A stretch of 37,210 nucleotides of DNA, taken from contig JAAXQI010000085.1 in NCBI GenBank assembly GCA_012974315.1, forward strand, positions 1-37,210. Direction: 5' to 3'. The translations under genes and the position numbers were made by a program. Of the stretch, positions 12,588 through 30,501 are shown one piece after another. How positions within the stretch are numbered: position 1 is the first letter of the stretch; each line of letters begins with the position of its first letter. Source of the stretch: Desulfobacterales bacterium. Its GTDB lineage: Bacteria > Desulfobacterota > Desulfobulbia > Desulfobulbales > BM004. The notes under the pieces are model-generated. The model made no database searches. It had not been told where the DNA came from and saw only the letters and a program-made list of their open reading frames with translations.

Positions 12588-12616
12588 TGTCAGATTGTTT
12601 TGATTCCTTTGAGTTT

Positions 12617-13765
12617 TTAGAAAGCTAAAATCTTTCCAGTAGCAGTATCCAGCCTGTTTTTTAAGAGTTTCATGCACGCATTGATAATAGTGTCAGTGGC
12701 TTCCGGTCTTGCAACCTTGCCAGAGTTGTCAGCCATTTCAGCAAGTAGTTTTTTATCTTCCAGGACCCGTTTTATCTCCATGCCAAGTTTATCACCAGTC
12801 AGATCTGCCTGCCTGAACATGAGGCCGGCTCCGGCTTCAACCAGATACTGTCCGTTGATTTCCTGATGATTATCAGCAGCAAATGGAAAAGGGATCAGGA
12901 TTACAGGTTTATGAAAGACTGTAAGCTCTGCAAGGGTTGTGGCCCCAGCTCTTGAAATTATGAGATCAGCTTGTGAGTAAATCTCTGCCATATCACTGAA
13001 AAAATCCTGGACTCTGGCGTTGAGTCCAAGCTCTACATATTTTCTTTGGACATGGTCTTTATCGTGTCCACCTGTCTGGTGAATTATGAAAGGTGGAGGT
13101 GAAAGTTTGCTCAAAATGTTTTCAGCGGCCTCAAGCATGAGGCTGTTCAAACGTCTTGCTCCCTGGCTGCCACCTAAAATAAGCAGGGTTGAAGATTCCT
13201 GGCCGGATTCAGGCTTAGCTTCTCTGGAAACTTTGAGAATTGTGTTCCGTACCGGGTTTCCGCTTAAGATGGTTTTGCTGGCAGGGAAATATTTCTCACT
13301 GCCAGGCAGAGAAACAAAAATTTTATTGGCGATGTAGCCCAGCAGTTTATTCGCCAGTCCCGGTATGGAGTTCTGCTCATGAATACAGGTGGTGACGCCT
13401 AACAGGCGTGCTGCAAGAATCACTGGTCCTGTTACATAACCGCCCACTCCAAATACAAGGTCTGGTTTGAATCTTCGTATAATCCCGGCTGCTTCCCATA
13501 AGGCCAAAGGTTGTTGGAACAGAGCCTTGAGAACGGCAAAAAAACTTTTTCCTTTAATCCCCTGACTTTTAATCGATCTGGTTGCAAAACCAAGATTAGA
13601 CAGGGCAGTTTTGTCAATTTTCCTTTCGGTGCCGATAAACAGTACCTCACAGCCTGGATCGGCTAGCATCATTGCCTGGGCCAGAGATATTCCAGGGAAA
13701 AGATGTCCACCGGTTCCACCTCCAGTTACGATTAGTCGTATATGCCGTGTAGTCTCTTCTTTCAT
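12617..13765 (-). CDS. murG: Undecaprenyldiphospho-muramoylpentapeptide beta-N-acetylglucosaminyltransferase MurG
   Basis: G-loop TGGGTGGHLFPGISLA and C-terminal ISRAGATTLAEL. Its ATG (13763-13765) is 1 nt from the murD stop (13767-13769). Confidence 0.9.
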   Translation of the reverse strand: MKEETTRHIRLIVTGGGTGGHLFPGISLAQAMMLADPGCEVLFIGTERKIDKTALSNLGFATRSIKSQGIKGKSFFAVLKALFQQPLALWEAAGIIRRFKPDLVFGVGGYVTGPVILAARLLGVTTCIHEQNSIPGLANKLLGYIANKIFVSLPGSEKYFPASKTILSGNPVRNTILKVSREAKPESGQESSTLLILGGSQGARRLNSLMLEAAENILSKLSPPPFIIHQTGGHDKDHVQRKYVELGLNARVQDFFSDMAEIYSQADLIISRAGATTLAELTVFHKPVILIPFPFAADNHQEINGQYLVEAGAGLMFRQADLTGDKLGMEIKRVLEDKKLLAEMADNSGKVARPEATDTIINACMKLLKNRLDTATGKILAF

Positions 13766-13766
13766 A

Positions 13767-15227
13767 TTAATGGAATAATAATTCCTCTACATTGCAGGCA
13801 GTGTTATTCTTTATGGCTAGAACAGAATTCCTGAAAACCGCTCCTCGTTCGGCATAGCTTGAAAACATGTCAAAACTGGCACAGGCAGGAGATAATAAAA
13901 CAGCATCACCTGGGACTGCAAGATTTGCCGCTCTGCAAACTGCCTCCTGGAGAGTGTCCAATGTCTCAACATTGGTAAAAGCTAAAAAGGCACGGGTCAT
14001 CTTGTCCCTGGCTTCGCCAATGAGCAATATATGCTTAACCTTTTGGCGAACTGCTTCTGAAAGGATTGAATAATCTCCACCCTTGTCCCTTCCTCCGGCA
14101 ATGAGAATAATAGGCTGATTTATGGCTCCAATGGCAGAGTAGACTGCTCCGACATTGGTTGCCTTTGAGTCGTCTACATAGCTAACGCCGTTAATTTCAG
14201 CCACCAGAGACATTCGGTGTTCAAGGGGTTTGAAGGAAGCAAGGCCCTTGAGAATATTCTGCTGTTGACATCCCATTAACCGGGCCGCAAGAATTGCAGC
14301 AGCAGCGTTTTGCAGATTAGGAGAATTTCTTAAATCTGTATTGGCCAAATCATATTCCTCGCCATGCATGTTGTCTGGCAGGGAGGAATCGCTGCTGTTT
14401 TTCAGGGTAATTTTTTCACCATGTATTGTTGCGCCGGCAAGAGCAGCAAGATCTTTGCCAAAAAAGAATTTGCGGCTTTCAGGCCATAAGTGTTTACGGT
14501 TCATAATTTCAATGTCGTCAGCATTAAGAACTGCGAAATCATCGGGACTCTGGGCTGCAAAAATCTTGAATTTGGAATCTACATAAGCTGAAAACGAGGT
14601 ATATCGTTCCAGGTGGTCTGGGCTGATATTGAGCAGGATAGCTGTTTTGAAAGATAGACCGTTTTTGCCGCCACCGGTATCCAGTTGAAAACTGCTGATC
14701 TCTGCAGCAACAATATCAGCAGTCTGGGCTCCTGATACATATTCTAAAAGCGGGGTGCCAATATTGCCGCCGACAAAAACATTTTGAAAACTGGCCTGGA
14801 AAATATTACCCAGGATGGTTGTCACTGTGGTCTTGCCATTGGTGCCAGTTATCCCAACGACAGGGGTTTTCAGGTAATGTGCTATTATTGCAAGTTCTCC
14901 TGTTACTGGTATGGAACAGCGTCTGGCTTCAACAAGTGGTTCAATGGAAAGAGGGATTCCCGGGCTGACAAAAATACAATCAACTGATGTGAACATTTCG
15001 ATGGAGTGACCACCGGTTTCGCAGGTAATATTATTCTCTTCAAACCAGGCTATAATTTCTGGATCCAGAGTTCCTTTGGATGATGAATCAGATACGGAGA
15101 CAGTGGCACCATGCTTGAGGAAAAATTTGACGGCAGCCATACCTGTTTTACCCAGGCCGACGACAAGAATAGTCATGCCTGTTTTGATATAGTTGCCGGT
15201 GTCTGTATTTGTTATCGAAGTTGCCAT
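13767..15227 (-). CDS. murD: UDP-N-acetylmuramoylalanine--D-glutamate ligase MurD
   Basis: VGLGKTGMA Rossmann block, P-loop [13 protein letters not shown], and NISPDHLERY. The true start may be the internal MTILVVGLGKTG. Confidence 0.9.
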   Translation of the reverse strand: MATSITNTDTGNYIKTGMTILVVGLGKTGMAAVKFFLKHGATVSVSDSSSKGTLDPEIIAWFEENNITCETGGHSIEMFTSVDCIFVSPGIPLSIEPLVEARRCSIPVTGELAIIAHYLKTPVVGITGTNGKTTVTTILGNIFQASFQNVFVGGNIGTPLLEYVSGAQTADIVAAEISSFQLDTGGGKNGLSFKTAILLNISPDHLERYTSFSAYVDSKFKIFAAQSPDDFAVLNADDIEIMNRKHLWPESRKFFFGKDLAALAGATIHGEKITLKNSSDSSLPDNMHGEEYDLANTDLRNSPNLQNAAAAILAARLMGCQQQNILKGLASFKPLEHRMSLVAEINGVSYVDDSKATNVGAVYSAIGAINQPIILIAGGRDKGGDYSILSEAVRQKVKHILLIGEARDKMTRAFLAFTNVETLDTLQEAVCRAANLAVPGDAVLLSPACASFDMFSSYAERGAVFRNSVLAIKNNTACNVEELLFH

Positions 15228-15255: not shown

Positions 15256-16335
15256 CTACCTGAGTTTTAAGGTTGCCAGGGCCATGAGGCCGAGAATGAT
15301 GGAAATAATCCAGAAACGGACTACAACCTTTGGCTCGGCCCATCCCTTTTTTTCAAAATGATGGTGAAACGGTGCCATCAGAAAGACCCTTTTGCCGCCA
15401 GATAGTTTGAAAAAACCTACCTGAATTATGACGGACAGGGCTTCCATGACAAAGATGCCACCGACAATTGTCAGCAGTATCTCCTGTTTTGTTATAATTG
15501 CAATTGCCCCAAGTGCGCCCCCCATGGACAGTGATCCCACATCTCCCATGAACATGTGGGCCGGATAGGCATTGTACCAGAGAAAACCGAGAGTGGAGCC
15601 CACAAGGGCACCACAGTAAACAGCAAGTTCTCCAGCCCCGGGAACAAATGGCATCTGCAGATATTTTGCTAAAATAGCATGGCCGGCCAGGTATGAAAAA
15701 ACAAGGTAAACACCGCCGGTAATGATGATCGGCCCGGCTGCCAGGCCGTCTAATCCGTCTGTGAGATTGACTGCATTGGAAGCCCCTACAATAACGAGAA
15801 TTGCGAATATAATATAAAACCATCCAAGATCCGGTCTGATGGATTTAAAGAAAGGAATGCTTAAATGACCGTCAAAGTTAGGGTGAGTGTAGAGGATTAT
15901 CCCAAGAAGAAGGGCGCCGGTAATCTGTAACAGTAATTTGCCCTTTGCACTTAAGCCCTTAGTATTATGGTTTGTTATTTTCTTGAAATCATCAATGGCC
16001 CCAATGGCGCCAAACCATAACGTGACACCCAGAATTACCCATACCAGGTGATTTGTCAGGTTGGCCCAGAGCAGGGTGGTATTAATGATGGTGAATATGA
16101 TAAGCATGCCACCCATGGTGGGGACGCCTTCTTTTTTTAGATGGGTCTCCGGGCCATCATCTCTGATTACCTGGCCAATTTGCAGGTTCTTGATATAACG
16201 TATAAAGGCAGGGGCCACTAAAACAAAGAAAAGAAAAGCAGTGATTGCAGCGCCAATGGTCCGAAAAGTGATGTAACGGAAGACATTGAATCCTGCAAAC
16301 AGGTTGTTCAGTGGGTAAAGGAGGTGGTAAAGCAT
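15256..16335 (-). CDS. mraY: Phospho-N-acetylmuramoyl-pentapeptide transferase MraY
   Basis: Polytopic membrane protein with conserved [27 protein letters not shown] and APFHHHFE blocks. Confidence 0.95.
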
Positions 16336-16340
16336 ATGTC

Positions 16341-19300
16341 TTAGTTGCCCCTGCCTGAATATTGTTTTGAATCTTGCTTGAGTAACGCAAGAATTTCTTC
16401 CATGCGCATACCTCTGGATCCCTTAATGAGAAGCCAGTCATCCGCTTTTATTTTATTTTCCTGCATAAGTTGATTCAGCCAAAGAACCAGATCTTTTTTA
16501 CTGTCAAATCCTCTGGCCGCTTCCTGGTCCATGCCGGCATCCCATGCACTTGTAACCATGTTCTGTGCCTGGCTGCCGAATACAGCCAGAAAATCTATAC
16601 CCAGTTCAAAAACTGTTTTTCCTAAAGCCTGGTGGGCATCATCACTTTTAGTTCCCAACTCCAGCATGTCACCGAGAATTGCTACAGCGCGCTGGCCTTT
16701 TTTAAGATCCTGCAGTGTGGTGAGTGCGGCCATCATCGATGCAGGATTGGCATTGTAGCAGTCATTAAGTACCTGTATTCCTGATTCCAGTTTTTCTATA
16801 CAGGTTCGCTTCTCATAGGGCATGAAAGCTGAGAGTCCTGTCGAGATTTCATCGATATCAATGTTGACACCATGAGCCATAGCTGCTGCTGCAAGGCTGT
16901 TTGTTACATTATGTTTGCCAATGCCCTTGATAGCTATTTGCCTGCTCTCATTGCCTATATGTAAAGTATAGGACATTCCCTCCCGTCCGAGGCTTTTGAT
17001 GTTCGTCGCCCGAACAAATGCATCGGGACAGGATCCAAACGTGATTTTTTCCTGTGTGAGTTGGGCAGCAAGCGAGCGGACAATTTCGTCATCAAGGTTG
17101 ACAACAGCTTTGCCCGCAGGTTTCAGACCGGCGAAGAGTTCATTTTTAGCCTTTGCCACACCTTGAATATCACCGAGACCCTCAAGGTGCGCCTCTTGAA
17201 CATTGATGATACAGGCAATATCAGGATCAGCGATCTCTGTTAAACGTGCAATTTCTCCTGGGCGATTCATCCCCATTTCGAGAACAGTCATTGTATGATC
17301 TTCCCTAAGGTTCAACAGGGTGAGTGGCATGCCGATCAAATTGTTAAAATTACCCTCGGTTTTTAAAATAGAGTGTTTCTGGCTGAGTATTGAACCAATC
17401 ATCTCTTTTACCGTGGTTTTGCCGGAACTCCCTGTCATGGCAAGGACCTGCAGGTCATTATTCCATCTACGCCTGTTTGCAGCCAGTTCACCCAAGGCCA
17501 AGAGGGTATCAGGCACAAGCAGCACAGGTATTGTCGGTTGAAAATCTAATGGTTCATTTTCCTTGCCAGAGGCCTGGTTGATGAGAAGCCCAGCTGCTCC
17601 ATTTTGGGCTGCTTTTTTGGCAAACAACCTGCCGTCAAAGTTTTCACCTTGCAGAGCAATAAAGAGATCACCTGGATTTATTGAGCGCGAATCTGTTGAA
17701 ATGTTATTAAAGAGAGTTTCCCTGTCTGCAGGATAGAGTAATTGTCCACCGGTAATCTGCTGGAGCCAATCAAGTTTCCAAAAATGCGGTAGACCAGCTG
17801 CAGCCTGCAACTGCATATCTGCCTCAATGCGATCATCGAAGAAAATTTTACCTTCTCTGCTTAATTGGTAGTTTTCATGTCCTTTGCCGCTGATAAGAAT
17901 GACGTCTTCCGGATTGGCAAAACGGATGGCAGTGCTGATTGCCACTCGCCGGCTTGTGAAAATATCGTATCCTGCCCCATTTTCTTTGGAGAGCATTTTC
18001 CAGGCAGGAATCTTATTAAGAGGAGACTTTAAAATTCCCTCTTCAACCTGCTCAAGTATTTTTTGCGGTGACTCAGAACGGGGATTATCCGAGGTGGCCA
18101 GTACAACGTCACTTAATGTGCCTGCGATCTCTCCCATAAGAACTCTTTTCCCGGAATCCCGATCCCCGCCGCATCCGAAGATGCAAATAAGCCGCTTGGA
18201 ATTAAGCTTTCTGAGAGCGTCTAAAACATTTTCCAGGGCATCAGGAGTGTGGGCGTAATCGATAAAAACAGTGGGGGTGTTTTCTGTACAAACTGCCTTG
18301 CTGTTTTTCCCAACAGATATTTTTTCGAGCCGGCCGGGAATAGTTTTTACATTCTCAACACCTTTTTGAATGCAGCCTAATTCATCTTTATGAACGATGC
18401 CTATGCCAATTGCGCAAAGTATATTGCGCAGGTTGAACTCTCCGACGAGTGGGCTTGTAAGGTGCAGAGACCCTGATGGTGAAATGATTTCAGCTTTAAT
18501 GCCGTGAATATCTATGTTGAAGTCCTGTGGGCGCACATCACATTCGTTGTTTAATCCATAAGTAATAATTGAGGGGGAATCTTCTCTGGCCTGGTACAAA
18601 GTCTTAAGTTCGTCCTGAAGCTGTTTGCCCCAGTTAGTTTTTTCTGTTCGTGAATCGGTACTCTCTCCTGACAGTGAAGGACTTTCATCAAGCATAATAA
18701 CTACCTGCCCCCCGGGTTTCAGGTAATCGGTGAATAACCGTTTTTTGCTTGAAAAGTATTGATCCATATCACGGTGAAAATCTAAATGATCCCTGCTTAA
18801 ATTCGTAAAGACCGCTATATCAAAAACCATTCCCGTAAGTCTCGCCTGAGCCAACGCATGTGAGGAGACTTCCATAACGACATCTGTAATTCCTTCATCT
18901 GCCATTTGACGGAGCAAAGCAAAGAGGGTATGGGATTCAGGTGTTGTAAATGGGGCTTCCATTTCAATATATGTGTCACTCCTGTTACTATACCGATAAT
19001 TAATTGTTCCAATAACACCTGGTCTTTTTCCACATGCTTTTAAAAACGCCTCAACCAGAAAAGATGTGGTTGTTTTGCCGTTAGTCCCGGTAATGCCGAT
19101 CACAGTAAGTTGCCGGTCCGGGTGGTCATAGAATGCAGCTGCAATATCACCCAGGGCAATTTTTGTATCATTTACTTCAACAAGTGGGATCTGCCCTACA
19201 TTTTCCGTTTCTGCTGCCAGGCTTTGCCAACCGTGATTCACCAACAGGGCGGAACAGCCAGCGGCAACAGCCTGATTCAAATAGTTGTGACCATCAACAG

Positions 19301-19460
19301 ATAAACCCTGAATGGCTGCAAAAAGGTTTCCGGGTTGAACCTTTCTGGAATCTGAAGAAAGTCCGGTAATTTCAGTTCTGCCTATATCCCCAGAAATCCT
19401 GCAATCAACTCCTTCAAGCAAATTTCTTAATTGTTTTGTTGCTGTAGTTAAAGTTGACAT
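16341..19460 (-). CDS. Fused MurE (meso-DAP-adding ligase, aa 1-~545) and MurF (D-Ala-D-Ala-adding ligase, aa ~549-1039)
   Basis: MurE part: [37 protein letters not shown] (DNPR, mDAP type), GKGHENYQ. MurF part: [44 protein letters not shown]. One continuous 1039-codon frame. In-frame ATG at 17814-17816 preceded by GAGG 5 nt upstream. Confidence 0.9.
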
Positions 19461-19506: not shown

Positions 19507-21471
19507 TCATATTTCATGCTGTAATTCAAGAGTACATTCGCTAACATTGATCAGTTCGGTCCCGGCAAGTGGTTGTTGAGATACAATTCGGCCACTCCCC
19601 ACAAGTTTTACATCCATATTAAAATGCTGAAGAACCTGTAGCCCGGCACGTAGACTTTTCCCGGTAATATCAGGCATGTTTTTCTTAAGATTGTCTGACA
19701 GTGCTGCAGGATCATCTTTTTCAAATGAATGGGAAGCCGAGTTATTTGCAGACCTTGTCCCTTCATTGTCCCAGAAATCCTGGGAAGGGGTTGGCGGGGA
19801 CATGGCAGCGACATGAAGCATTGTTCTAATCATGTCCTCATCCGGGCTAAGGATTGAGAATTTATTTCCAAAAGCTGCCAATGTATCAGGAGAGACTCTG
19901 TCACAGCTGTCTGGATAAGAAAGGACAGCTATCATGGTCAGTTCAGGCTTTTCTCCTGGTATGGCACCGATCATAATACTTTGGGAAAGATACGGGGTTT
20001 GATCAGTTAGATCCTCTTTTTCAGGTGTTGCATAGTTATGCGCCTCGAAAAACATTGGAGTGTCTGATTTTCTGCCCTTTCTGCCAAGCTTCAACCATTT
20101 TGTTGCAAGGAAATCATTTAAGTCTTTGGTCGTGTTGGGGTTAAGGACAACCTTTTGCTCAGTTGCATTTAAAGTTGTCTCAAATGGAGTGGTGATGCCC
20201 TTCTGGTAAGCCTTGTACAGCAAATGCGGAGTGACAAGTCTGCCTCCATTTACCAGGGTTGTAAAGCCATTTAAAAGTCTCATGGCAGAAGAACTGAAAG
20301 ATGGGTTAATAATAAGGGAGGATGAGACGGGTGTTTCGTCTTTAAGCGGCAAATCTGCCAGAGGCTTTTGGCCAAAGCCCAATAATTGCGTAAACTCGGC
20401 AAGGTAAACCGGATCGATATCATCGACCCGGGGAGCAACCGACAATTTTCTTCTTTTTTGTTTATCCGGAGCGAGAACAGTTACAGGGTTTGATTCATCT
20501 AAATTTACAAAAGATCCAGACTTTTTTTCATTTTTTAAATTGAAGGCTGCAGCCTGTTGAAAAATAAGGGCCAGTTCTCCAGGATAAACTGGTTCAGTCA
20601 GAGCATGATTACTGAGTGCAGAACTGGAGAACTCCCAATAGCTGTTCGGGTTGAACGAAGGAAAACTCGCCAGGGCAAGAACTGCGCCTGTATTTGCGTT
20701 CATCAGGATAATCGTACCACTGGAGGCTCCAGTAATTTTCATCCTTTTATCAAGGAAGCGCTCAATTTTCGACTGGATCATCAGGTCAAGATTTAACACC
20801 AGGTGCGTGCTGGAACCGCCAAACTCTGTTTCAGGGGCATAGTTCAGCGTTTTAAGTTCTGCGCTACTTATTTCATCTCCCCGCAGTAAGGAATTATATT
20901 GAAACTCAATACCATCAAGTCCCTGGCCATTCTCGACAAATCCCACCACATGTGCAGCTTTTTTAAAGTTTGGGTAAAAGCGTTTTGTCTCGACAACCTG
21001 ATAAACACCTTTCATATTGCGCTGCTTTATAGCGTCTGCTTTTTCATGATCAATTTTTTGGGCAACCCAGATAAACCCTCGTTCACTTTTCAAGTTTGGT
21101 AAAAGTTTGCTTTTTTCCAGTCCTAGAATTTCAGCAAGTATGGCTGCAGAAGAATCAGGATCTTCCATTTCCAGGGGACGTGCATAAATGGCATAGGTTT
21201 TATATGCGGATGTAAGGGGCCTGAAGTTCCGATCATATATATCTCCTCTGATAGAGGAGGGGGGGGGAGTGGAAGCTATTACTTCTCCGGGATGGTTTTG
21301 TTGAATCCAGCTAAAAACTTCGTTGAGGGTATATAACTTGTCTTTATGAAACAATAAGGCCCCGGATCCCAAAAACAGAACAAGGGCCAGGAGGAGAAGG
21401 CGCACTTTCCTTCTTTTCTCTGCCAGTAATTTCCGTCGTCTCCTGACGTGTGTTTTAGCGTGCTCAGTCAT
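19507..21471 (-). CDS. FtsI/PBP3-like class-B penicillin-binding-protein homologue with degenerate transpeptidase motifs and a C-terminal PASTA-like module
   Basis: N-terminal TM segment. PBP dimerisation-domain blocks (RGDIYDRNFRPL, RFYPNFKKAAHVVGF, GLDGIEFQYNSLL). Transpeptidase scaffold blocks retained (PSFNPN, LLGFGQKPLADLPLKDE, LVNGGRLVTPHLL, IGAIPGEKPELTMIAVL). The SxxK position reads PGELAL (nt 20566-20580), and no SxN or KTG is found in the expected context. C-terminal module MPDITGKSLRAGLQVLQHFNMDVKLVGSGRIVSQQP. Confidence 0.8.
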   Translation of the reverse strand: MTEHAKTHVRRRRKLLAEKRRKVRLLLLALVLFLGSGALLFHKDKLYTLNEVFSWIQQNHPGEVIASTPPPSSIRGDIYDRNFRPLTSAYKTYAIYARPLEMEDPDSSAAILAEILGLEKSKLLPNLKSERGFIWVAQKIDHEKADAIKQRNMKGVYQVVETKRFYPNFKKAAHVVGFVENGQGLDGIEFQYNSLLRGDEISSAELKTLNYAPETEFGGSSTHLVLNLDLMIQSKIERFLDKRMKITGASSGTIILMNANTGAVLALASFPSFNPNSYWEFSSSALSNHALTEPVYPGELALIFQQAAAFNLKNEKKSGSFVNLDESNPVTVLAPDKQKRRKLSVAPRVDDIDPVYLAEFTQLLGFGQKPLADLPLKDETPVSSSLIINPSFSSSAMRLLNGFTTLVNGGRLVTPHLLYKAYQKGITTPFETTLNATEQKVVLNPNTTKDLNDFLATKWLKLGRKGRKSDTPMFFEAHNYATPEKEDLTDQTPYLSQSIMIGAIPGEKPELTMIAVLSYPDSCDRVSPDTLAAFGNKFSILSPDEDMIRTMLHVAAMSPPTPSQDFWDNEGTRSANNSASHSFEKDDPAALSDNLKKNMPDITGKSLRAGLQVLQHFNMDVKLVGSGRIVSQQPLAGTELINVSECTLELQHEI

Positions 21472-21480
21472 TTAGCATTA

Positions 21481-21681
21481 CTATCTCCGCAATGTTGATG
21501 CATTAAGTTTTAGTTGATTAAATATGTCCTTCTGTCCTGTACTTGCAACCATAATGAGCTCGACAACCTTCAAAGAATCGGCATTCAGATCGTCAAAGAA
21601 AGATGTGCCGGGCATGACCTTGTCCTTATCACCACTTGACTGTTCAACAATGAAATCATTCAGTATCTCGTTTGTTGACAT
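21481..21681 (-). CDS. Small acyl-carrier-protein-like ORF (66 aa) with a DSL phosphopantetheine-attachment-type motif
   Basis: MSTNEILNDFIVEQSSGDKDKVMPGTSFFDDLNADSLKVVELIMVAS... lines up by eye with the ACP helix I-II pattern (..I...L......V....SF..[8 protein letters not shown].VELVM). GAGGAG SD lies 8 nt upstream of the ATG at 21679-21681. Tightly packed between ftsL and the ftsI-like gene. The C-terminal part is shorter than canonical ACP. Confidence 0.5.
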   Translation of the reverse strand: MSTNEILNDFIVEQSSGDKDKVMPGTSFFDDLNADSLKVVELIMVASTGQKDIFNQLKLNASTLRR

Positions 21682-21730
21682 ATTCAATTCTCCTCAAGTA
21701 TTTTGAATTCCGTTAGTGTTCTAAGTTTAA

Positions 21731-22099
21731 TTATGGATAGCGGAGTTGGCTTTTAGTGGGAAAGTACAGCCCGATTCCCTCGGCAGCTTTCTCTATATGT
21801 TCCTGGGTCAGCATCAAATCACGTTGAGCAATCAGTATCCTGTTTTCGCTCGCCAACTCAGTATTGGTTATTTTGTTGCTGCCTATTTGATCAAGAGCTA
21901 ATTGAACCTGCCAGCCGTACCAGATAGTTGAAGTAATACCAATAACGACGGTTATAAGAAGCATTGCCCCGAGTGCTTTCCACATGAGCATGGTTACAGA
22001 AAAGAAATCCCTGGACGTTGTGGCTGCCTTTTTTTTGGGAGATTTTTTTTTGTTCCTGCAATTTATTGCGACATAGGTGCCAGAATAATCATTAACCAT
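21731..22099 (-). CDS. ftsL: Cell division protein FtsL
   Basis: Bitopic protein: basic N-terminus, TM segment ALGAMLLITVVIGITSTIWYGW, then a heptad-rich region and C-terminal IEKAAEGIGLYFPTKSQL typical of FtsL. Conserved slot after rsmH. Start placed at ATG 22097-22099, which has GGAGGAGAG upstream (the longest ORF starts at TTG 22123). Confidence 0.7.
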   Translation of the reverse strand: MVNDYSGTYVAINCRNKKKSPKKKAATTSRDFFSVTMLMWKALGAMLLITVVIGITSTIWYGWQVQLALDQIGSNKITNTELASENRILIAQRDLMLTQEHIEKAAEGIGLYFPTKSQLRYP

Positions 22100-22119
22100 T
22101 TTGACTCTCCTCCCTTTGA

Positions 22120-23079
22120 TCAACCTTTCATGTAAGCTGCCCGAAGTTTTGCGCTTCTTGAACGAGGATTCATCTTGATCTCCTCGTCACTCGCGGTTAC
22201 GGGTTTTTTAGTTAAAATTTCCAGTAATGAATTGTCTCTGAATTTCCACTTGACCAATCGGTCTTCCAGGGAATGAAATGTAATAATGCAGACCCTGCCT
22301 CCCGGTGTAAGAATTTTCGTGATGAAATCGAGTATTGCTGTCAGATTGTCAAGCTCTTCATTGACGGCAATTCGTAGAGCCTGAAATACCTTTGTGGCTA
22401 CATGGATTTTTCGGGGGTGGAATTTTTTGGGAATAGAACTGGAAACAATATGAGCAAGATGCGAGGTCGTGCTAATATATTCTTTCTTTCTCTCTTCAAC
22501 TATATGTGATGCGATACGTCGGGCCTGTCTTTCTTCGCCAAAGTAATAAAAAATATCTGCTAAATCATCTTTGCTGAAGTTGTTAATTATTTTTTCTGCA
22601 GTAGAATGTCGTCGCCTGTCCATCCGCATATCAAGTGGGCCGTCTGCCTGAAAACTGAATCCTCTTGTTTCGTTGTCAAACTGAAGTGAGGAAACGCCGA
22701 GATCCAAAAGCACCCCGTCAACTTTTTGAATACCCATTTCAGTTAATCCGTCCATAATTTCTGAGTAACTCCTGTGCTGAGCTGAAAAACGCTGGCCAAA
22801 AGGTGAGAGTCTCTTTGTGGCCAGTTCCAAAGCATTGGCGTCCCATTCAAAGCCAATGACCTGGCCGGAGGGACTGCATAATTGCAGAATTTTTTCAGAA
22901 TGTCCCCCAAGACCGAGGGTGCCGTCAACATATATCCCGCCATCAACCGGGGCCAGAAGCTGAGTAGCTTCATCGAGAAGAACGGGAATGTGGATTGGTG
23001 GGGATGTTTTGGGGTCAGAGGATTTGGCCATGGGGGGGCAAGGATTTTTCTTAGGAATAATTTCCCCCTCATGAGTCAC
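22120..23079 (-). CDS. rsmH: 16S rRNA (cytosine1402-N4)-methyltransferase RsmH (MraW)
   Basis: HIPVLLDE, VDGTLGLGGHS, LLDLGVSSLQFD, SLEDRLVK, RSRSAKLRA. The longest ORF starts at GTG 23079. An alternative ATG at 23029-23031 (MAKSS...) is equally plausible. Confidence 0.9.
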   Translation of the reverse strand: MTHEGEIIPKKNPCPPMAKSSDPKTSPPIHIPVLLDEATQLLAPVDGGIYVDGTLGLGGHSEKILQLCSPSGQVIGFEWDANALELATKRLSPFGQRFSAQHRSYSEIMDGLTEMGIQKVDGVLLDLGVSSLQFDNETRGFSFQADGPLDMRMDRRRHSTAEKIINNFSKDDLADIFYYFGEERQARRIASHIVEERKKEYISTTSHLAHIVSSSIPKKFHPRKIHVATKVFQALRIAVNEELDNLTAILDFITKILTPGGRVCIITFHSLEDRLVKWKFRDNSLLEILTKKPVTASDEEIKMNPRSRSAKLRAAYMKG

Positions 23080-23093
23080 GGTATTCCCTTTTC

Positions 23094-23573
23094 TTAAAGT
23101 ATGCCCAGGGCGGATAGGCTCTGTTCAAAATCGCTGAATTTGTCTCTGGTCAGCTTTCTTTCCTTTTCCCATGCAGCTTTATCCCAAATTTCGAAGTGAT
23201 CAAGCATGCCATTCAGCACCACATCTTTTTTCAAATCAAAATCCGTCCGTAATGTTGGCGGCAGGAGGATTCTGCTTTGTTTGTCAAGGGAGCAGTCAGT
23301 AACACCGGAAATAACATAGCGCATGAAAGAATCCATTCCGGGTTGCTTCTTACCCTGAACAAGCAGGGTAGTTTCGATCTGTTCCCAGATTTTTGCAGGA
23401 AACGCCTTTAAGCATTTATGCCAGTTGGTGACCATTAAGTTTTCCTGGTAATGGTCCTGAAGCACATCCCGAAACCTGCTCGGAATATTAAGCCTCCCCT
23501 TACTGTCCAGCGTATGCTCTGAACGGCTGCGAAATCTGTTTGTCGATGCTTTGCTGTTGCTTGATTTGGGCAT
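23094..23573 (-). CDS. mraZ: Transcriptional regulator MraZ
   Basis: Duplicated SpoVT/AbrB-like halves, DSKGRLNIPSRFR and DKQSRILLPPTLR. First gene of the dcw cluster. Confidence 0.95.
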   Translation of the reverse strand: MPKSSNSKASTNRFRSRSEHTLDSKGRLNIPSRFRDVLQDHYQENLMVTNWHKCLKAFPAKIWEQIETTLLVQGKKQPGMDSFMRYVISGVTDCSLDKQSRILLPPTLRTDFDLKKDVVLNGMLDHFEIWDKAAWEKERKLTRDKFSDFEQSLSALGIL

Positions 23574-23853: not shown

Positions 23854-23877
23854 ATGGAATGGAGTCTACCATTCCAT
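23854..23877 (-). other. 9-bp perfect stem-loop overlapping the stop codon of the RNase II/R-family gene (possible attenuator/insulator before the dcw promoter)
   Basis: ATGGAATGG (23854-23862) / CCATTCCAT (23869-23877) with a 6-nt loop. No U-tract follows it on the - strand, so it is not a canonical intrinsic terminator. Confidence 0.3.
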
Positions 23878-25860
23878 TTTTAAAATATTGCTTAAGGCGC
23901 TTACTTTGGACAGTTTAATCAGAACAGTATCCCCGGCAGAAACTTTGAAGGCCTGGTTAAACGGCAGGTCAACGTCAAGCAGGAATTCTTCCAGAAAGAG
24001 ATGTACGCGTTTTGGACCATGGTTGATAACAGTGGCAGGAAGTCTTTCACCTGCCTTTGCTTCCAGATATTTTAATATCCAATAGCGCTGGCGTTGATTT
24101 TTGACCTGGTTGGCTTTATCAAGGGTTGTGAGAATAATGGATCCAAAATGCTTCATGTCTTTTTTGCTGAAAAAAACTCCCTGACCTATGAGCAGGTTGC
24201 TGATCTGAAGCTGCATGATCAGGTCCAGAAGACGTCGGATGGGAGATGTGACGGTGGTGTATTGTGGTGCACCAACACCGCTATGGATTTTGGGGGTAGT
24301 TAACAGGCACATTGGAGATAAGCGTTTCCGCTGCTGAATAACCTTGGTTATATCTTTTTCGAAGCCGTCGATAATTCTTTGGCGGGGTTCCATCTGGCAG
24401 CGGAATAAGCCTGGCGCTTCCCTGTCAGCCACGAACTGGGCTCCAAGCGTATTTGCCAGAATCATGAACTCAGCGATAAGAATTTTGCTGGGTGTGTCAA
24501 CAGCAGATGTATTTATCTCAATGGTGCCATCAGGCTTTATCCTGATATTTAATTCCGGCACGGGCAAGAGTAAGGCCCCATTATTTACCCGTCTTTGCCG
24601 CAGTAACTTACTCAGTGCAGCCAGGAAAGCCAGCTCCTGGTCCTGATTAATTAACCCGTTCGCCTCGTCATAGGTCAACTGTCGTTTCACCGAAATAATA
24701 CTATGGACCATTTCGTATTTGAGAACCTCTGCAGTGGGGCTAAGCAACACTAATAAACTTACGGCTGGACGTACCTGGTCTTTGAGAAGGCTTAATTTGT
24801 CCTCTGACAGGGGAGCGGGGAGCATTGAGATAGGGTTTTCAGGAAAATATAGAGAAGTTCCCCTTTTAAGTGCTTCATCAAAGAGAGCGGTTCCCGGTTT
24901 TACAAAAAGGCCCACATCTGAAATATGAATGCCGACAAGATAGTTCACACCCTGTTTTTCAATGTGAAGTGCATCATCGAAATCCCTGGTTGTGGGACCG
25001 TCAATGGTCAAAACAGGCAAATCCCTGAAGTCTTTTCTTCCAGCATCAGATAAATCTTTTACAGAGGGCAATTCGATTTCTTTAACTTCAGCGAGGACAG
25101 CTTCGGAAAAAATTGTTGGGATATCTTTCTTAAGAAGGGGGATGTTTTCATTTTTATCCCAGACTCCGGCTTTGACCAATAGGTGAAAGATATCATGTGG
25201 CCCTGTCAGTTGAGCGCTTTTGGTAAGCTTACGTGCCAGTTCATGTTGAGGAGCCTCATTGTCAAAAAGATAGTAATCCTGGAGTATCTGCAAAGTTGTC
25301 GTTCCCTCCTCCCAATTGGCAGGAATCTTCCCCTCTTTCCAGATTTGACGCAGGGCTAAAGTGTTTTTGGTAATAAAAAACTCCTCCTGTTTTTCTTTCT
25401 CCTGCATAAATTTTATCTGCTCAACGGTTTCAGGTGAATGAACATGGATATTGCCTGTTTTGTATTTGAAATAAAGTCGGTCAGCGATTACAGATCGAAG
25501 GAAAGCGGCGGCTTGGTCGTCCGTGGGGTCGTCACCAAAAAATAAACTTGCCAGGAAATTAACCTCGTAGCTCTCTTCAGGTTTTTCAGAGACAAGTCCC
25601 CAAATCTCATCAAGATTAATTGTTTGTGCCAGTCCTTCTCTCTGTTTTGAGGTTTCCTGCAGGGATGAAATGATCTCCTCTCTGGAGTGTTTAGCAGAGA
25701 TTTTCTCTTTGGTGAAGTGGACAATTCTATTGAGCGGCAAATTGAGTTCTCTGCTGTTCTGATTAAGCAATCGAAGCCGGTTTCCATTATCATCGAATAC
25801 AAAAGCACAGATGAATTTGCCGTTTTCCAGATATTCAATTATCCTGCCGTCTAGTGTCAT
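23866..25860 (-). CDS. RNB-domain exoribonuclease (RNase II / RNase R family)
   Basis: RNB catalytic motifs TIDGPTTRDFDDALHIE, HISDV and TSPIRRLLDL. C-terminal S1-like beta region. Confidence 0.85.
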   Translation of the reverse strand: MTLDGRIIEYLENGKFICAFVFDDNGNRLRLLNQNSRELNLPLNRIVHFTKEKISAKHSREEIISSLQETSKQREGLAQTINLDEIWGLVSEKPEESYEVNFLASLFFGDDPTDDQAAAFLRSVIADRLYFKYKTGNIHVHSPETVEQIKFMQEKEKQEEFFITKNTLALRQIWKEGKIPANWEEGTTTLQILQDYYLFDNEAPQHELARKLTKSAQLTGPHDIFHLLVKAGVWDKNENIPLLKKDIPTIFSEAVLAEVKEIELPSVKDLSDAGRKDFRDLPVLTIDGPTTRDFDDALHIEKQGVNYLVGIHISDVGLFVKPGTALFDEALKRGTSLYFPENPISMLPAPLSEDKLSLLKDQVRPAVSLLVLLSPTAEVLKYEMVHSIISVKRQLTYDEANGLINQDQELAFLAALSKLLRQRRVNNGALLLPVPELNIRIKPDGTIEINTSAVDTPSKILIAEFMILANTLGAQFVADREAPGLFRCQMEPRQRIIDGFEKDITKVIQQRKRLSPMCLLTTPKIHSGVGAPQYTTVTSPIRRLLDLIMQLQISNLLIGQGVFFSKKDMKHFGSIILTTLDKANQVKNQRQRYWILKYLEAKAGERLPATVINHGPKRVHLFLEEFLLDVDLPFNQAFKVSAGDTVLIKLSKVSALSNILKMEW

Positions 25861-25981
25861 GTGCTGAGTTATATCCTGTTGACCGGTTAAGCCGGCATTG
25901 AGTATTTTATATTTTTTAAGAAGCCTGACGGCTTACCATGTATTCATGGTGTCGTAAAGCTATGAATTTTGATGATTTCGG

Positions 25982-26217
25982 AAATAGTTGATTTCTCCAA
26001 AGGATGGTTTAATGAAATCAACTGGTTATAACCACCATGCCGTCGGTTGCGCGGCTTTTCGCGAGACCGACAATTTTTATCTTACAGTTAAATAGTTGAT
26101 TTCTCCAAAGGATGGTTTAATGAAATCAACTGGTTATAACCACCATGCAATGATTGACAGGCAGACACCCGCGGTTTTTTGCGAGACCGACAATTCTGAC
26201 TTTAGAATAAATAGTTA
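25982..26217. repeat. Tandem direct repeat: two full units (25982-26089, 108 nt; 26090-26208, 119 nt) plus the first 9 nt of a third
   Basis: A 59-nt core is 100% identical at 25982-26040 and 26090-26148. A variable segment follows (10 vs 21 nt), then a conserved tail GCGG(C/T)TTT(-/T)(C/T)GCGAGACCGACAATT. The core holds a 10-bp inverted repeat AGTTGATTTC-N18-GAAATCAACT and a 12-bp perfect palindrome TGGTTATAACCA. Confidence 0.9.
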
Positions 26218-26224
26218 GTATACT
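26196..26224 (+). promoter_or_regulatory. Candidate era promoter
   Basis: CTGACT (26196-26201), 17-nt spacer, TATACT (26219-26224), about 100 nt upstream of the era ATG. By-eye match only. Confidence 0.35.
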
Positions 26225-26325
26225 ACTTATCGGTTTTTTTTAAAAAGGGGACAGATTTCAAATCTGCACCTCAGTTGCCAACAACATTAATAGATTCAAT
26301 TATCATAAGGATTTTTTTTAAAGAG

Positions 26326-27219
26326 ATGCAGGAAGACACTATTAAATCAGGCATTGTGGCAATCGTCGGCCCACCAAATGCGGGCAAGTCCACATTGATG
26401 AATGGTTTGTTGGGGCAGAAAATTTCAATTGTAACACCGAAGCCACAAACAACCAGAAACAGGATCATCGGTATTCTTAATGATCCATCGTATCAGATTG
26501 TTATGCTTGATACACCTGGTTTGCATAAGGCAGATAAACCTCTTAACCTGGAAATGGTAAAAATAGCAGTTTCCAGTCTTTCTGAGGTTGATGCAATCCT
26601 GTTCCTTGTCGATGTTTCCCGGTCCGTACCTGAAAAGCAGAAAAAGACGGTTGAATATCTCAAGGGAATAGCATGCCCCGCAATCCTGGTTTTAAACAAG
26701 ATTGATCTTCTGAAAAAGGATCAAATCCTGCCGCTTATAGAAATGTACCGTGATATTTATCCATTTGCCGCCATTATCCCGATTTCAGCCCTTATGAATA
26801 ATGGTACAGATATCTTGCTGCAGGAACTTCTTCGTCTCCTGCCTGAAGGTCCCAGGCTTTACCCTGAAGATATACCGACGGATGCAACCGAGCGTTTTAT
26901 AGTTGCTGAGATTATCAGGGAGAAGATATTTCTCCTGACCGGGCAGGAAATCCCGTATTCAACAGCAGTTGTTATAGAGAGTTTTAAGGAAGACGAAGAA
27001 AGGTCTCTGGTGACAATTCATGCGACAATAGTTGTGGAGAAGTCTTCACAAAAAGCTATAATCATAGGAAAAAAAGGTTCAAAGTTGCAGCAGATCGGCA
27101 AAAACTCACGCTACGACATTGAGAAACTTATGGCACAACGGGTTATGTTAAAGCTATGGGTCAAGGTGCACAAGAACTGGACCAGTGATATGCGTTTTAT
27201 TCGTGATCTGGGACTGTGA
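26326..27219 (+). CDS. era: GTPase Era
   Basis: G1 GPPNAGKSTL, G3 DTPGLH, G4 NKIDL, and C-terminal KH domain (IIGKKGSKLQQIG). Start placed at ATG 26326 (MQEDTIKSGIVAIVG), not the longest ORF start at 26275. Confidence 0.95.
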   Translation: MQEDTIKSGIVAIVGPPNAGKSTLMNGLLGQKISIVTPKPQTTRNRIIGILNDPSYQIVMLDTPGLHKADKPLNLEMVKIAVSSLSEVDAILFLVDVSRSVPEKQKKTVEYLKGIACPAILVLNKIDLLKKDQILPLIEMYRDIYPFAAIIPISALMNNGTDILLQELLRLLPEGPRLYPEDIPTDATERFIVAEIIREKIFLLTGQEIPYSTAVVIESFKEDEERSLVTIHATIVVEKSSQKAIIIGKKGSKLQQIGKNSRYDIEKLMAQRVMLKLWVKVHKNWTSDMRFIRDLGL

Positions 27220-28970: not shown

Positions 28971-29123
28971 AATGTTCCTATAGATGGGGCTGAGGAGATT
29001 GTCGGTCATAGAGAAATTTAATGGATTTTTCAAACTACACATTTTGTTGAGCATAATATAATAATTTAGCACGCTGAGTACAATCAGACAATATAATATT
29101 ATGGTGGAGTAAAGGGATTCTGG

Positions 29124-30500: not shown

Positions 30501-30501
30501 G

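What the first reader, a model, noticed from the sequence alone, without database searches (positions are those of the whole stretch)
19507..21471. The dcw-encoded FtsI/PBP3 homologue appears to be a catalytically dead transpeptidase
- Seen in sequence: the ORF in the ftsI slot keeps the class-B PBP architecture, namely a TM anchor, dimerisation-domain blocks and a transpeptidase scaffold.
- The conserved context FNPN...(N)xA(L)TExYxPG-S-x-x-K reads FNPNSYWEFSSSALSNHALTEPVYPGELALIF, so the nucleophile Ser is Glu299 and the Lys is Leu302 (nt 20566-20577).
- No SxN lies upstream of the retained LGFGQKPLADLPLKDE block.
- The KTGTA position upstream of the retained IGAIPGEKPELTMIAVL block reads LGRKGRKSD.
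- A ~40-aa insertion (KNEKKSGSFVNLDESNPVTVLAPDKQKRRKLSVAPRVDD) follows the pseudo-SxxK.
- A PASTA-like module ends the protein.
- Established knowledge: SxxK, SxN and KTG are essential for penicillin-binding transpeptidases, and FtsI acts with the SEDS polymerase FtsW as the septal peptidoglycan synthase.
- Inference: the septal bPBP may be a pseudo-enzyme here, with a scaffold or regulatory role and possibly PASTA-mediated muropeptide sensing. It sits in a cluster that also lacks ftsW and has gained a carrier-protein-like ORF, so this could be a remodelled division or septal peptidoglycan module.
Basis: partly seen in the sequence, partly recalled or inferred. Interest (0 to 1): 0.75.

Follow-up and report, generated by a model that had tools for sequence, protein, structure and literature searches.

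The report
Catalytically dead FtsI, no FtsW
The cell-division gene cluster of this sulfate-reducer relative (order Desulfobulbales) encodes an FtsI/PBP3 that keeps its fold but has lost all three catalytic motifs. It also has no ftsW, and the pattern is conserved and under selection across the order, so these bacteria probably build their division septum without the FtsW-FtsI enzyme pair considered near-universal.

Summary
ORF 19507-21471 (-) encodes a 654-aa class-B PBP homologue in the ftsI slot of a dcw cluster. It has a TM helix, a pedestal, a transpeptidase-like fold and a C-terminal PASTA domain.

- **Motifs:** Canonical PGSTxK / SSN / KTG read PGELAL / (segment replaced) / NYA.
The KTG-equivalent lies at about 479-484, not at LGRKGRKSD. 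The "40-aa insertion" replaces the SxN-bearing segment and is not a net insertion. The PASTA domain is ancestral.
- **Not an artefact or pseudogene:** A 99%-identical copy comes from a separate metagenome. dN/dS is 0.20, similar to neighbouring enzymes.
- **Spread:** About 95 clusters at 45-78% identity keep YPGELxLIFQQ. 141 of 142 additional top representatives (50%-identity clusters) lack the motifs. Named members include Desulfogranum marinum, Desulfobulbus oralis and Desulfurivibrio.
- **ftsW:** Every Desulfobulbales locus examined has murD abutting murG, while canonical relatives keep ftsW there.
- **Conservation:** Pedestal and PASTA are far better conserved than the transpeptidase core.

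Best reading: a non-catalytic FtsI kept as a divisome scaffold or regulator, with septal peptidoglycan made by another synthase. ftsW absence in Desulfobulbaceae was published in 2021. I found no paper describing the dead FtsI.

The parts
19507..21471 (-). ftsI* : 654-aa class-B PBP homologue lacking all three catalytic motifs (pseudo-transpeptidase)
   Evidence: ORF. Pfam PBP_dimer, partial Transpeptidase and PASTA. NCBIfam bPBP models match only the N-terminal part, residues 22-321 across models, far below cut-offs: 140.7 vs 688 and 91 vs 737. AF2 model has pLDDT 79.4, and Foldseek gives a full-length match to PBP3/SpoVD at E 4e-30.
21349..21471 (-). Basic cytoplasmic tail plus single TM helix (residues 1-41)
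   Evidence: Sequence MTEHAKTHVRRRRKLLAEKRRKVRLLLLALVLFLGSGALLF. The model has one continuous helix 3-41.
20722..21255 (-). Pedestal / n-PB module (residues 73-250) with the conserved bPBP motifs RGxIxDRN, RxYP and GxxGxE intact
   Evidence: PF03717 54.8 bits. Invariant D80, R164, Y166, P167, G177, L185, G187, E189 across 71 sequences. 36% identity to distant family members, against 12-20% for the TP core. dN/dS 0.14.
19882..20721 (-). Degenerate transpeptidase-like domain (residues 251-530)
   Evidence: The fold is retained but no invariant polar residue is shared across the order. dN/dS 0.21.
20566..20577 (-). Pseudo-SxxK: E299-L-A-L302 at the N-terminus of the alpha-2-equivalent helix (298-318)
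   Evidence: Alignments to E. coli PBP3 and canonical FtsI. Coordinates. YPGELxLIFQQ is conserved in about 95 clusters.
20419..20535 (-). Lys-rich, low-confidence linker (residues 313-351) that replaces the canonical SxN-bearing segment
   Evidence: Alignment. pLDDT below 50 at 325-340. 69 aa here vs 82 aa in a canonical relative.
20020..20037 (-). Pseudo-KTG region: N479-Y-A-T-P-E484 on or next to the beta-3-equivalent strand
   Evidence: HMMER alignment to SpoVD KTGTA. MAFFT alignment. Strand 473-481 in the model.
19510..19677 (-). C-terminal PASTA domain (residues 599-654), the best-conserved module of the family
   Evidence: PF03793 24.6 bits vs cut-off 23.2. Invariant M599, P600, G604, S606, R608, L611, G625, G627, Q632, P634, G637. 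46% identity to distant members. Also present in canonical relatives.
21731..22099 (-). FtsL-like bitopic protein (122 aa from ATG 22099; the ORF extends to 22123) in the canonical ftsL slot
   Evidence: Weak TIGR02209 ftsL match at 17.3 bits, below cut-off. Conserved at 55-57% in L083, L003 and L001, and a 93-123-aa ORF sits in the same slot in L081, L084 and L087.
16341..19460 (-). murE-murF fusion (1039 aa) immediately downstream of ftsI*
   Evidence: Pfam shows two Mur-ligase triplets. NCBIfam NF008896 bifunctional MurE/MurF at 965 bits.
13763..13769 (-). murD stop / murG start junction: the place where ftsW sits in canonical clusters, empty here
   Evidence: ORF coordinates. Canonical relatives have a 1.1-1.2 kb gap here, and in L004 the gap encodes FtsW (TIGR02614, 431.5 bits). 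tblastn finds no FtsW remnant.

Best explanation
**What it is**
- This is the orthologue by position and descent of the division transpeptidase FtsI (PBP3).
- It has become a pseudo-enzyme in the order Desulfobulbales.

**Shown here**
- The Ser-x-x-Lys nucleophile, the SxN motif and the KTG strand motif are all gone.
- The protein still folds like a class-B PBP.
- It is under purifying selection in every domain.
- The loss co-occurs with deletion of ftsW from the dcw cluster in every Desulfobulbales locus examined.

**Inferred**
- The protein is retained for its non-catalytic parts: TM helix, pedestal and PASTA domain.
- In canonical FtsI the TM helix and pedestal mediate contacts with the SEDS partner and FtsQLB (general knowledge of that complex, not tested here), so the protein probably still acts as a structural or regulatory subunit of the divisome.
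- Septal glycan polymerisation and cross-linking would then be supplied by another synthase. The candidates are the single RodA-PBP2 pair reported for this family and/or a class-A PBP.
- This is analogous to B. subtilis tolerating a catalytically dead PBP2B, and to C. difficile dividing with an aPBP.
For: **Motif loss**
- Alignments to solved PBP3/SpoVD and to canonical FtsI from 9 fetched loci all show the loss.
- Pfam and NCBIfam bPBP models match only up to the residue before the nucleophile.

**Fold retained**
- The AF2 model has pLDDT 79.4. Foldseek best hits are P. aeruginosa PBP3 and C. difficile SpoVD at E about 4e-30 over about 540 columns.

**Selection**
- dN/dS against a 77%-identical orthologue is 0.20 overall: pedestal 0.14, TP-like 0.21, PASTA 0.18.
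- This is comparable to murEF at 0.18, rsmH at 0.21 and rnb at 0.14.

**Breadth**
- About 95 clusters at 45-78% identity keep YPGELxLIFQQ.
- More distant homologues from Desulfurivibrionaceae, Desulfogranum marinum, Desulfobulbus oralis and BMS3Abin13 also lack all motifs.
- 141 of 142 further top representatives of 50%-identity clusters lack them.

**Domain pattern**
- Identity to distant members is 36% for the pedestal and 46% for PASTA, against 12-20% for the TP core.
- No polar residue of the TP-like domain is invariant across the order.
- Overall divergence matches the non-enzymatic FtsQ and FtsL rather than MraY or MurC.

**ftsW**
- It is absent in the window and in L003, L081, L083, L084 and L087. 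It is present in the canonical relatives L004, L014, L015, L022, L052 and L064.
- Geerlings et al. 2021 (PMC7873302) report ftsW absent and an mre-pbpA-rodA cluster present in four Desulfobulbaceae genomes.
Against: **Gaps in the test**
- The rest of this genome could not be inspected. A second, intact FtsI and/or an FtsW elsewhere in this particular organism is not excluded by my own tests, only by literature on four related genomes.
- No biochemical evidence exists (no bocillin labelling or activity assay).
- The proposed partners (FtsQLB, RodA, aPBP) are inference. No interaction or localisation was tested or modelled.

**A possible alternative signal**
- Within the core family, the helix carrying the pseudo-SxxK is the most conserved segment (84% identity).
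- E299, E476 and H478 are invariant there, which leaves room for a lineage-specific new function of the pocket.
Confidence: 0.75

Rival explanations
1. An accessory, dead paralogue occupies the dcw slot, while a canonical FtsW-FtsI pair that does the real septal synthesis is encoded elsewhere in the genome.
For: Only 37 kb of this genome is visible. In Bacilli the division FtsW is encoded outside the dcw cluster (PMC10693644), so relocation has precedent.
Against: - Geerlings et al. 2021 found no ftsW in four Desulfobulbaceae genomes and list only PBP2/RodA in the mre cluster.
- The dead protein sits in the exact ancestral position (mraZ-rsmH-ftsL-ftsI-murE) in all loci.
- The word-indexed search for relatives of the window protein returned no canonical bPBP that a source names as Desulfobulbales.
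Confidence: 0.12
2. The transpeptidase-like domain has been neofunctionalised. It would be an enzyme or ligand-binding pocket using different residues (for example Glu299, Glu476, His478), not a mere scaffold.
For: E299, E476 and H478 are invariant in the 17-sequence core alignment. The pseudo-SxxK helix is the most conserved segment there at 84%. The TP-like domain has dN/dS 0.21, so it is constrained.
Against: - E299 and H478 are not conserved in the other Desulfobulbales families, which read GGF, LIR, LIE and so on at that position.
- The SxN segment is replaced by a disordered linker and the beta-3 motif is gone, removing the known substrate-binding elements.
- Alpha-2 is the buried core helix of the fold, so its conservation can be structural.
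Confidence: 0.08
3. A decaying pseudogene, or a sequencing or assembly artefact.
For: Loss of all catalytic motifs and a low-complexity segment in the middle of the domain.
Against: - The full-length ORF is intact in more than 200 clusters.
- dN/dS is about 0.2 in all domains.
- A 99%-identical copy with 5 synonymous and 5 non-synonymous differences occurs in an independent JGI metagenome.
Confidence: 0.02

Closest known systems
FtsI / PBP3 (class-B PBP of the divisome; E. coli and P. aeruginosa PBP3, C. difficile SpoVD as solved relatives)
   Same: - Same gene position: mraZ-rsmH-ftsL-ftsI-murE.
- Same architecture: TM helix, pedestal, penicillin-binding-fold domain and C-terminal PASTA, as in canonical FtsI of neighbouring Desulfobacterota-type lineages.
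- Same predicted fold.
   Different: - SxxK, SxN and KTG are all absent.
- The SxN-bearing segment is replaced by a disordered Lys-rich linker.
- There is no cognate ftsW.
- The protein fails every NCBIfam bPBP cut-off, and RefSeq names relatives only 'PASTA domain-containing protein'.
Engineered or conditionally dispensable transpeptidase activity of division bPBPs: B. subtilis PBP2B(S309A) with PBP3; C. difficile SpoVD with PBP3
   Same: A division or sporulation bPBP whose protein body is needed while its catalytic activity can be supplied by another PBP. This is cited in PMC12516126, and PMC5656894 was listed.
   Different: Those are laboratory point mutants of otherwise intact enzymes that still pair with a SEDS protein. 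Here the inactivation is natural, ancient and order-wide, involves all three motifs, and is accompanied by loss of the SEDS partner.
Clostridioides difficile division without FtsW-FtsI (aPBP PBP1-driven septation)
   Same: A walled bacterium lacking a canonical FtsW-FtsI pair for vegetative division, so another synthase must build the septum (PMC10693644).
   Different: C. difficile is a monoderm endospore former whose dcw-encoded SpoVD/SpoVE remain catalytically competent and were re-purposed for sporulation. Here a diderm lineage has deleted ftsW and kept a dead FtsI.
Reported absence of ftsW in Desulfobulbaceae (Geerlings et al. 2021, PMC7873302)
   Same: The same lineage and the same dcw peculiarity: ftsW, zipA and ftsN were not found, murE and murF are marked as fused genes, and the mre-pbpA-rodA cluster is present.
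   Different: That paper treats FtsI as present and as the enzyme that synthesises septal peptidoglycan. It does not note the loss of catalytic motifs. It also scores FtsL as not encoded, whereas an FtsL-like ORF occupies the canonical slot in all loci seen here.

Membership tests
[quoted passage not shown] | N-terminal membrane anchor followed by the pedestal (PBP dimerisation, PF03717) domain | tested here: met
   PF03717 54.8 bits vs cut-off 24.4. Helix 3-41 in the model. Pedestal motifs are invariant.
[quoted passage not shown] | Penicilloyl-serine-transferase fold C-terminal to the pedestal | tested here: met
   PF00905 43 bits vs cut-off 22.1, but only model positions 1-43 align. The AF2 model matches PBP3/SpoVD over about 540 columns, E 4e-30, TM (target-normalised) 0.61-0.70.
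Functional DD-transpeptidase / penicillin-binding enzyme | Motif 1, S-x-x-K (nucleophile Ser and general-base Lys at the start of helix alpha-2) | tested here: not met
   E299-L-A-L302 aligns to STxK of E. coli PBP3 and 9 canonical FtsI proteins.
Functional DD-transpeptidase / penicillin-binding enzyme | Motif 2, S-x-N | tested here: not met
   The canonical 'KYSSNIG' segment aligns to a gap/'APRV'. The whole segment is replaced by linker 313-351.
Functional DD-transpeptidase / penicillin-binding enzyme | Motif 3, K-(T/S)-G on strand beta-3 | tested here: not met
   It aligns to N479-Y-A (HMMER) or P483-E (MAFFT). The only K[ST]G in the protein is KSG317, inside the linker.
Functional DD-transpeptidase / penicillin-binding enzyme | Covalent binding of beta-lactams (bocillin-FL labelling) | not testable with these tools
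   This needs purified protein or membranes of a cultured relative.
FtsI (divisome bPBP) orthologue | Position in the dcw cluster between ftsL and murE | tested here: met
   mraZ-rsmH-ftsL-like-ftsI*-murEF-mraY-murD-murG-murC-murB-ftsQ-ftsA-ftsZ. The order from mraZ to ftsQ is the same in the five relatives' loci, each of which ends at or just past ftsQ.
FtsI (divisome bPBP) orthologue | Cognate SEDS polymerase FtsW encoded in the cluster or genome | tested here: not met
   No SEDS is found in the 37-kb window or in the five relatives' 19-22 kb loci, and canonical relatives have it between murD and murG. Genome-wide absence rests on PMC7873302 for four related genomes and was not tested for this genome.
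FtsI (divisome bPBP) orthologue | Score above the curated cut-off of NCBIfam FtsI/SpoVD/PBP2 models | tested here: not met
   TIGR02214 scores 140.7 vs 688. NF011685 scores 91.1 vs 737. TIGR03423 scores 103.7 vs 455. The matches all end between residues 285 and 321.
Pseudoenzyme (catalytically inactive homologue retained by selection) | Loss of catalytic residues together with evidence of purifying selection and wide conservation | tested here: met
   dN/dS is 0.20 overall and 0.21 in the TP-like domain. More than 200 clusters carry the same loss.
PASTA domain | Match to PF03793 above the gathering score | tested here: met
   24.6 bits vs 23.2. The model shows an alpha + 3-beta unit at 607-651. 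It is alignable to the PASTA of canonical FtsI proteins.

The most novel reading that the evidence does not exclude
An entire order of diderm bacteria (Desulfobulbales, including cable bacteria and cultured Desulfobulbus) divides with no FtsW and no FtsI transpeptidase activity. The dead FtsI would act as an adaptor that recruits or activates the elongation pair RodA-PBP2 (or an aPBP) at the Z-ring. A single SEDS-bPBP machine would then serve both elongation and septation, switched by exchange between a live and a dead bPBP partner.
Probability: 0.3. Interest if true: 0.85.

Novelty: new variant of a known kind. Interest (0 to 1): 0.7.

Why it matters
- **Standing assumption:** FtsW-FtsI is treated as the near-universal septal peptidoglycan synthase. 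C. difficile was recently highlighted as an exception (PMC10693644).
- **What this adds:** A second, independent exception in a Gram-negative-type lineage, with a different solution. ftsW is deleted and FtsI is kept as a selected pseudo-enzyme.
- **Natural experiment:** It separates the scaffolding or regulatory role of a division bPBP from its catalytic role.
- **Who it concerns:** It bears on how cable bacteria and sulfate reducers build septa.
- **Annotation:** These genes are currently labelled 'FtsI/penicillin-binding protein 3' or 'peptidoglycan synthase FtsI' in several sources, which should not be read as a statement of function.
- **Prediction:** PBP3-specific beta-lactams should not block division in these organisms.

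Tried and rejected
**Searches that gave little**
- The single genome-contig scan with the family alignment was swamped by a generic PBP pattern ([ML]A[SN][YF]Px[FY][DN]PN). Only 3 of 80 loci were family members, though the canonical hits served as motif and synteny controls.
- The exact-sequence look-up of the window protein found nothing.
- A search with the FtsW of L004 was meant to reveal any Desulfobulbales FtsW. It returned only Geobacteraceae FtsW, showing that L004 is a Geobacteraceae MAG, and said nothing about Desulfobulbales.
- I could not retrieve whole genomes, so a direct census of SEDS, bPBP and aPBP genes in this organism was not possible.
- Seven literature searches found no description of a motif-less FtsI in Desulfobulbales.

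**Ideas rejected**
- 'PASTA gain' as part of the remodelling: canonical relatives have the same PASTA.
- Linkage of the MurE-MurF fusion to FtsI inactivation: Desulfurivibrionaceae have the dead FtsI with separate murE and murF, and a Geobacteraceae MAG appears to have a fused murEF (one contiguous tblastn match; ORF not checked) with intact FtsI and FtsW.
- Linkage of the ACP-like ORF to the phenomenon: it is restricted to a sub-clade.
Full report
**1. What is in the window**

The minus strand between about 6.8 and 23.6 kb carries a complete dcw cluster. The gene order is:

| Gene | Coordinates |
|---|---|
| mraZ | 23094-23573 |
| rsmH | 22120-23079 |
| FtsL-like ORF | 21731-22123 |
| 68-aa ACP-like ORF | 21481-21687 |
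| ftsI-slot ORF | 19507-21471 |
| murE-murF fusion | 16341-19460 |
| mraY | 15256-16335 |
| murD | 13767-15227 |
| murG | 12617-13765 |
| murC | 11187-12677 |
| murB | 10240-11181 |
| ftsQ | 9377-10240 |
| ftsA | 8139-9371 |
| ftsZ | 6849-8039 |

- The murD stop and the murG start are one base apart, so there is no room for ftsW.
- tblastn with a bona fide FtsW finds no remnant anywhere in the 37 kb.
- The other ORFs of at least 90 aa that were scanned encode no SEDS protein or PBP.

**2.

The 654-aa product has three Pfam domains:
- PBP_dimer, residues 73-199.
- The first 43 positions only of the 299-position Transpeptidase model, residues 252-298.
- One PASTA domain, residues 599-641.

NCBIfam bPBP models (SpoVD, PBP2, FtsI) match only the N-terminal part, all ending between residues 285 and 321. 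Their scores are five- to eight-fold below their cut-offs. A canonical FtsI from locus L004 matches the same models end to end.

The catalytic columns were checked two ways:
- phmmer against PDB aligns E. coli PBP3 '...TDVFEPGST' with '...TEPVYPGEL'. This puts Glu299 on the nucleophile Ser. It also aligns SpoVD 'GGKTGTAQK' with 'AHNYATPEK'.
- A MAFFT alignment with nine canonical FtsI proteins taken from fetched loci gives PGSTFK / KYSSNIG / AGKTGTAQ in the canonical proteins. The window protein reads PGELAL / gap-APRV / NYATPE.

No S..K, S.N or K[ST]G string lies anywhere near a catalytic position.

- The KTG-equivalent is at about 479-484, on or next to the predicted beta-3 strand. It is not at LGRKGRKSD (462-470).
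- The 'about 40-aa insertion' is a replacement of the SxN-bearing segment. Pseudo-Ser to LGFG spans 69 aa, against 82 aa in a canonical relative, so it is not a net insertion.

**3. The fold is kept**

- An AlphaFold2 model built on a 71-sequence alignment has mean pLDDT 79.4.
- It shows a helix at 298-318 starting exactly at the pseudo-SxxK, strands at 473-481, 495-504 and 511-519, and a PASTA unit.
- The only low-confidence stretches are linkers, including 325-340.
- Foldseek against PDB returns P. aeruginosa PBP3 and C. difficile SpoVD as best hits (E about 4e-30, about 540 aligned columns, 20% identity).

**4. Not an artefact, not a pseudogene**

- A 99%-identical gene from a separate JGI metagenome (L085) differs by 5 synonymous and 5 non-synonymous changes and keeps ELAL.
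- Against a 77%-identical orthologue (L086), dN/dS is 0.20 overall: pedestal 0.14, TP-like domain 0.21, PASTA 0.18.
- That is the same range as murEF (0.18), rsmH (0.21) and rnb (0.14) in the same pair of loci.

**5. It is a lineage-wide state**

- A search of 5.8 billion proteins returned about 95 clusters at 45-78% identity. All carry YPGELxLIFQQ in place of PGSTxK. Where a source names them, they are labelled Thermodesulfobacteriota, Desulfobulbales or Desulfobulbaceae.
- More distant homologues (24-32% identity) also lack all three motifs. They include proteins from Desulfurivibrionaceae, Desulfogranum marinum (WP_205220802.1), Desulfobulbus oralis (WP_181040350.1) and bacterium BMS3Abin13. 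Some have an even more reduced TP-like domain.
- A profile search of 1.84 billion cluster representatives put 142 further 50%-identity clusters in the top 150. Of these, 141 lack the motifs at the aligned columns.
- Named examples among them are Desulfurivibrio sp. D14AmB and Thermodesulfobacteriota bacterium B35.
- RefSeq calls these proteins merely 'PASTA domain-containing protein'. Other sources call them FtsI or peptidoglycan synthase.

**6. Co-occurrence with loss of ftsW**

| Loci | Group | State |
|---|---|---|
| L003, L083 | Core family | murD directly followed by murG |
| L081 | D. marinum | murD and murG separated only by a 70-aa ORF |
| L084 | Desulfurivibrionaceae | murD directly followed by murG |
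| L087 | D. oralis-like | murD directly followed by murG |
| L004, L014, L015, L022, L052, L064 | Canonical relatives | 1.1-1.2 kb gap between murD and murG |

- None of the five Desulfobulbales loci gives a tblastn signal for FtsW.
- In L004 the gap encodes an FtsW that passes TIGR02614 (431.5 bits against a cut-off of 337.5). All six canonical relatives have STxK/SSN/KTG.
- The MurE-MurF fusion is not coupled to this change. Desulfurivibrionaceae have separate murE and murF with a dead FtsI. The Geobacteraceae MAG L004 appears to have a fused murEF (one contiguous tblastn match; ORF not checked) together with a live FtsI and FtsW.

**7. Which parts are constrained**

- Identity of distant members to the window protein is 36% in the pedestal and 46% in PASTA.
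- It is 12-20% in the TP core and linkers.
- The columns invariant across all 71 aligned sequences lie mostly in the classical pedestal motifs (D80, R164-Y166-P167, G177, L185-G187-E189, D229, Q233) and in PASTA.
- Within the TP-like core beyond the pseudo-SxxK, only A307, P415 and P505 are invariant. No polar residue is invariant in the TP-like domain apart from N276 of the retained FNPN block.
- Overall the protein diverges like FtsQ and FtsL rather than like the enzymes. Against L083, identity is 55% for the protein, 61% for FtsQ, 57% for FtsL, 86% for MraY and 84% for MurC.
- This is the signature expected of a protein kept for interactions rather than catalysis.

**8. Mechanism (inference)**

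- In canonical divisomes the TM helix and pedestal of FtsI contact FtsW and FtsQLB. This is established knowledge and was not tested here.
- The retention and conservation of exactly these parts, plus PASTA, argues that FtsI* remains a divisome subunit. An FtsL-like protein and FtsQ are still encoded next to it.
- With ftsW gone and the active site dead, septal peptidoglycan must come from another synthase.
- Geerlings et al. 2021 report that Desulfobulbaceae have an mreBCD-pbpA-rodA cluster and no ftsW. RodA-PBP2 and/or a class-A PBP are therefore the candidates.
- Precedents for a division bPBP whose body matters but whose catalysis is dispensable, and for aPBP-driven division, exist in B. 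subtilis and C. difficile.
- I could not test which synthase is used. I also could not test whether this particular genome hides another FtsI/FtsW pair.

**9. Rivals**

- **Accessory paralogue with the real pair elsewhere.** This is not excluded for this genome. It is contradicted by the literature on four relatives and by the strictly ancestral gene position.
- **Neofunctionalised pocket.** E299, E476 and H478 are invariant in the core family, and the alpha-2 helix is its most conserved segment at 84%. However, these residues are not shared by the other Desulfobulbales families.
- **Pseudogene or artefact.** Refuted by sections 4 and 5.

**10. Novelty**

- The absence of ftsW in Desulfobulbaceae is published (PMC7873302). 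That paper assumes FtsI is the active septal synthase.
- A 2025 survey of bPBP/SEDS diversity (PMC12516126) does not mention Desulfobulbales or motif-less FtsI.
- Seven full-text searches found no description of this state.
- I therefore rate it a new variant of a known kind: a natural, order-wide pseudo-enzyme form of FtsI coupled to SEDS loss. It would surprise cell-division specialists and can be tested directly in cultured Desulfobulbus.

Noticed in passing
window 21481-21687 (-): A 66-68-aa ORF with a good RBS lies between the ftsL-like gene and ftsI*. It matches acyl-carrier-protein models only over positions 3-46 of about 78, including the DSL phosphopantetheine-attachment motif (FFDDLNADSLKVVELIM), and then diverges. 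It is conserved in L085, L086 and L001 (dN/dS 0.42 against L086). It is absent from L003 and L083, and no gene is called in that slot in L081, L084 or L087. It is either a truncated ACP-like mini-protein or a decaying fragment, and its function is unknown.
   Followed up: partly
window 21731-22123 (-): An FtsL-like bitopic protein (TM plus coiled coil; weak TIGR02209 hit) sits in the canonical ftsL slot here. A 93-123-aa unannotated ORF occupies the same slot in all Desulfobulbales loci examined. The literature scores FtsL as 'not encoded' in cable bacteria and Desulfobulbus.
   Followed up: partly
window 2095-3264 (+): A single 389-aa ORF combines a YbeY endoribonuclease domain (26-144) with a complete PdxJ pyridoxine-5'-phosphate synthase domain (155-388). 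This is an apparent YbeY-PdxJ fusion, located downstream of phoH.
   Followed up: no
window 16341-19460 (-); L004 5852-8740: MurE and MurF are fused into one 1039-aa protein here and in Desulfobulbaceae-type loci. A Geobacteraceae MAG (L004) gives one contiguous tblastn match spanning both halves, so it is probably fused there too. They are separate in Desulfurivibrionaceae (L084). The fusion is therefore independent of the FtsI/FtsW change.
   Followed up: partly
window 27624-32105 (-) and 23866-27219: ftsE-ftsX-M23 (EnvC-like)-S41 protease (CtpA-like), then era and an RNase II-family gene, lie immediately upstream of mraZ. The same arrangement is conserved in L083 at 55-88% identity. The septal hydrolase-activation module is thus syntenic with the dcw cluster in this clade.
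   Followed up: no
L081 17210-17422: In Desulfogranum marinum a 70-aa ORF with no Pfam hit sits between murD and murG, exactly where ftsW would be. I did not check whether it is a remnant of ftsW beyond a negative tblastn.
   Followed up: partly
window 4861-6624 (-) and 3415-4860 (-): A radical-SAM protein (Radical_SAM_N2 plus Radical_SAM) and a histidine kinase lie directly downstream of ftsZ on the same strand. I did not examine whether they are co-transcribed with the dcw cluster.
   Followed up: no
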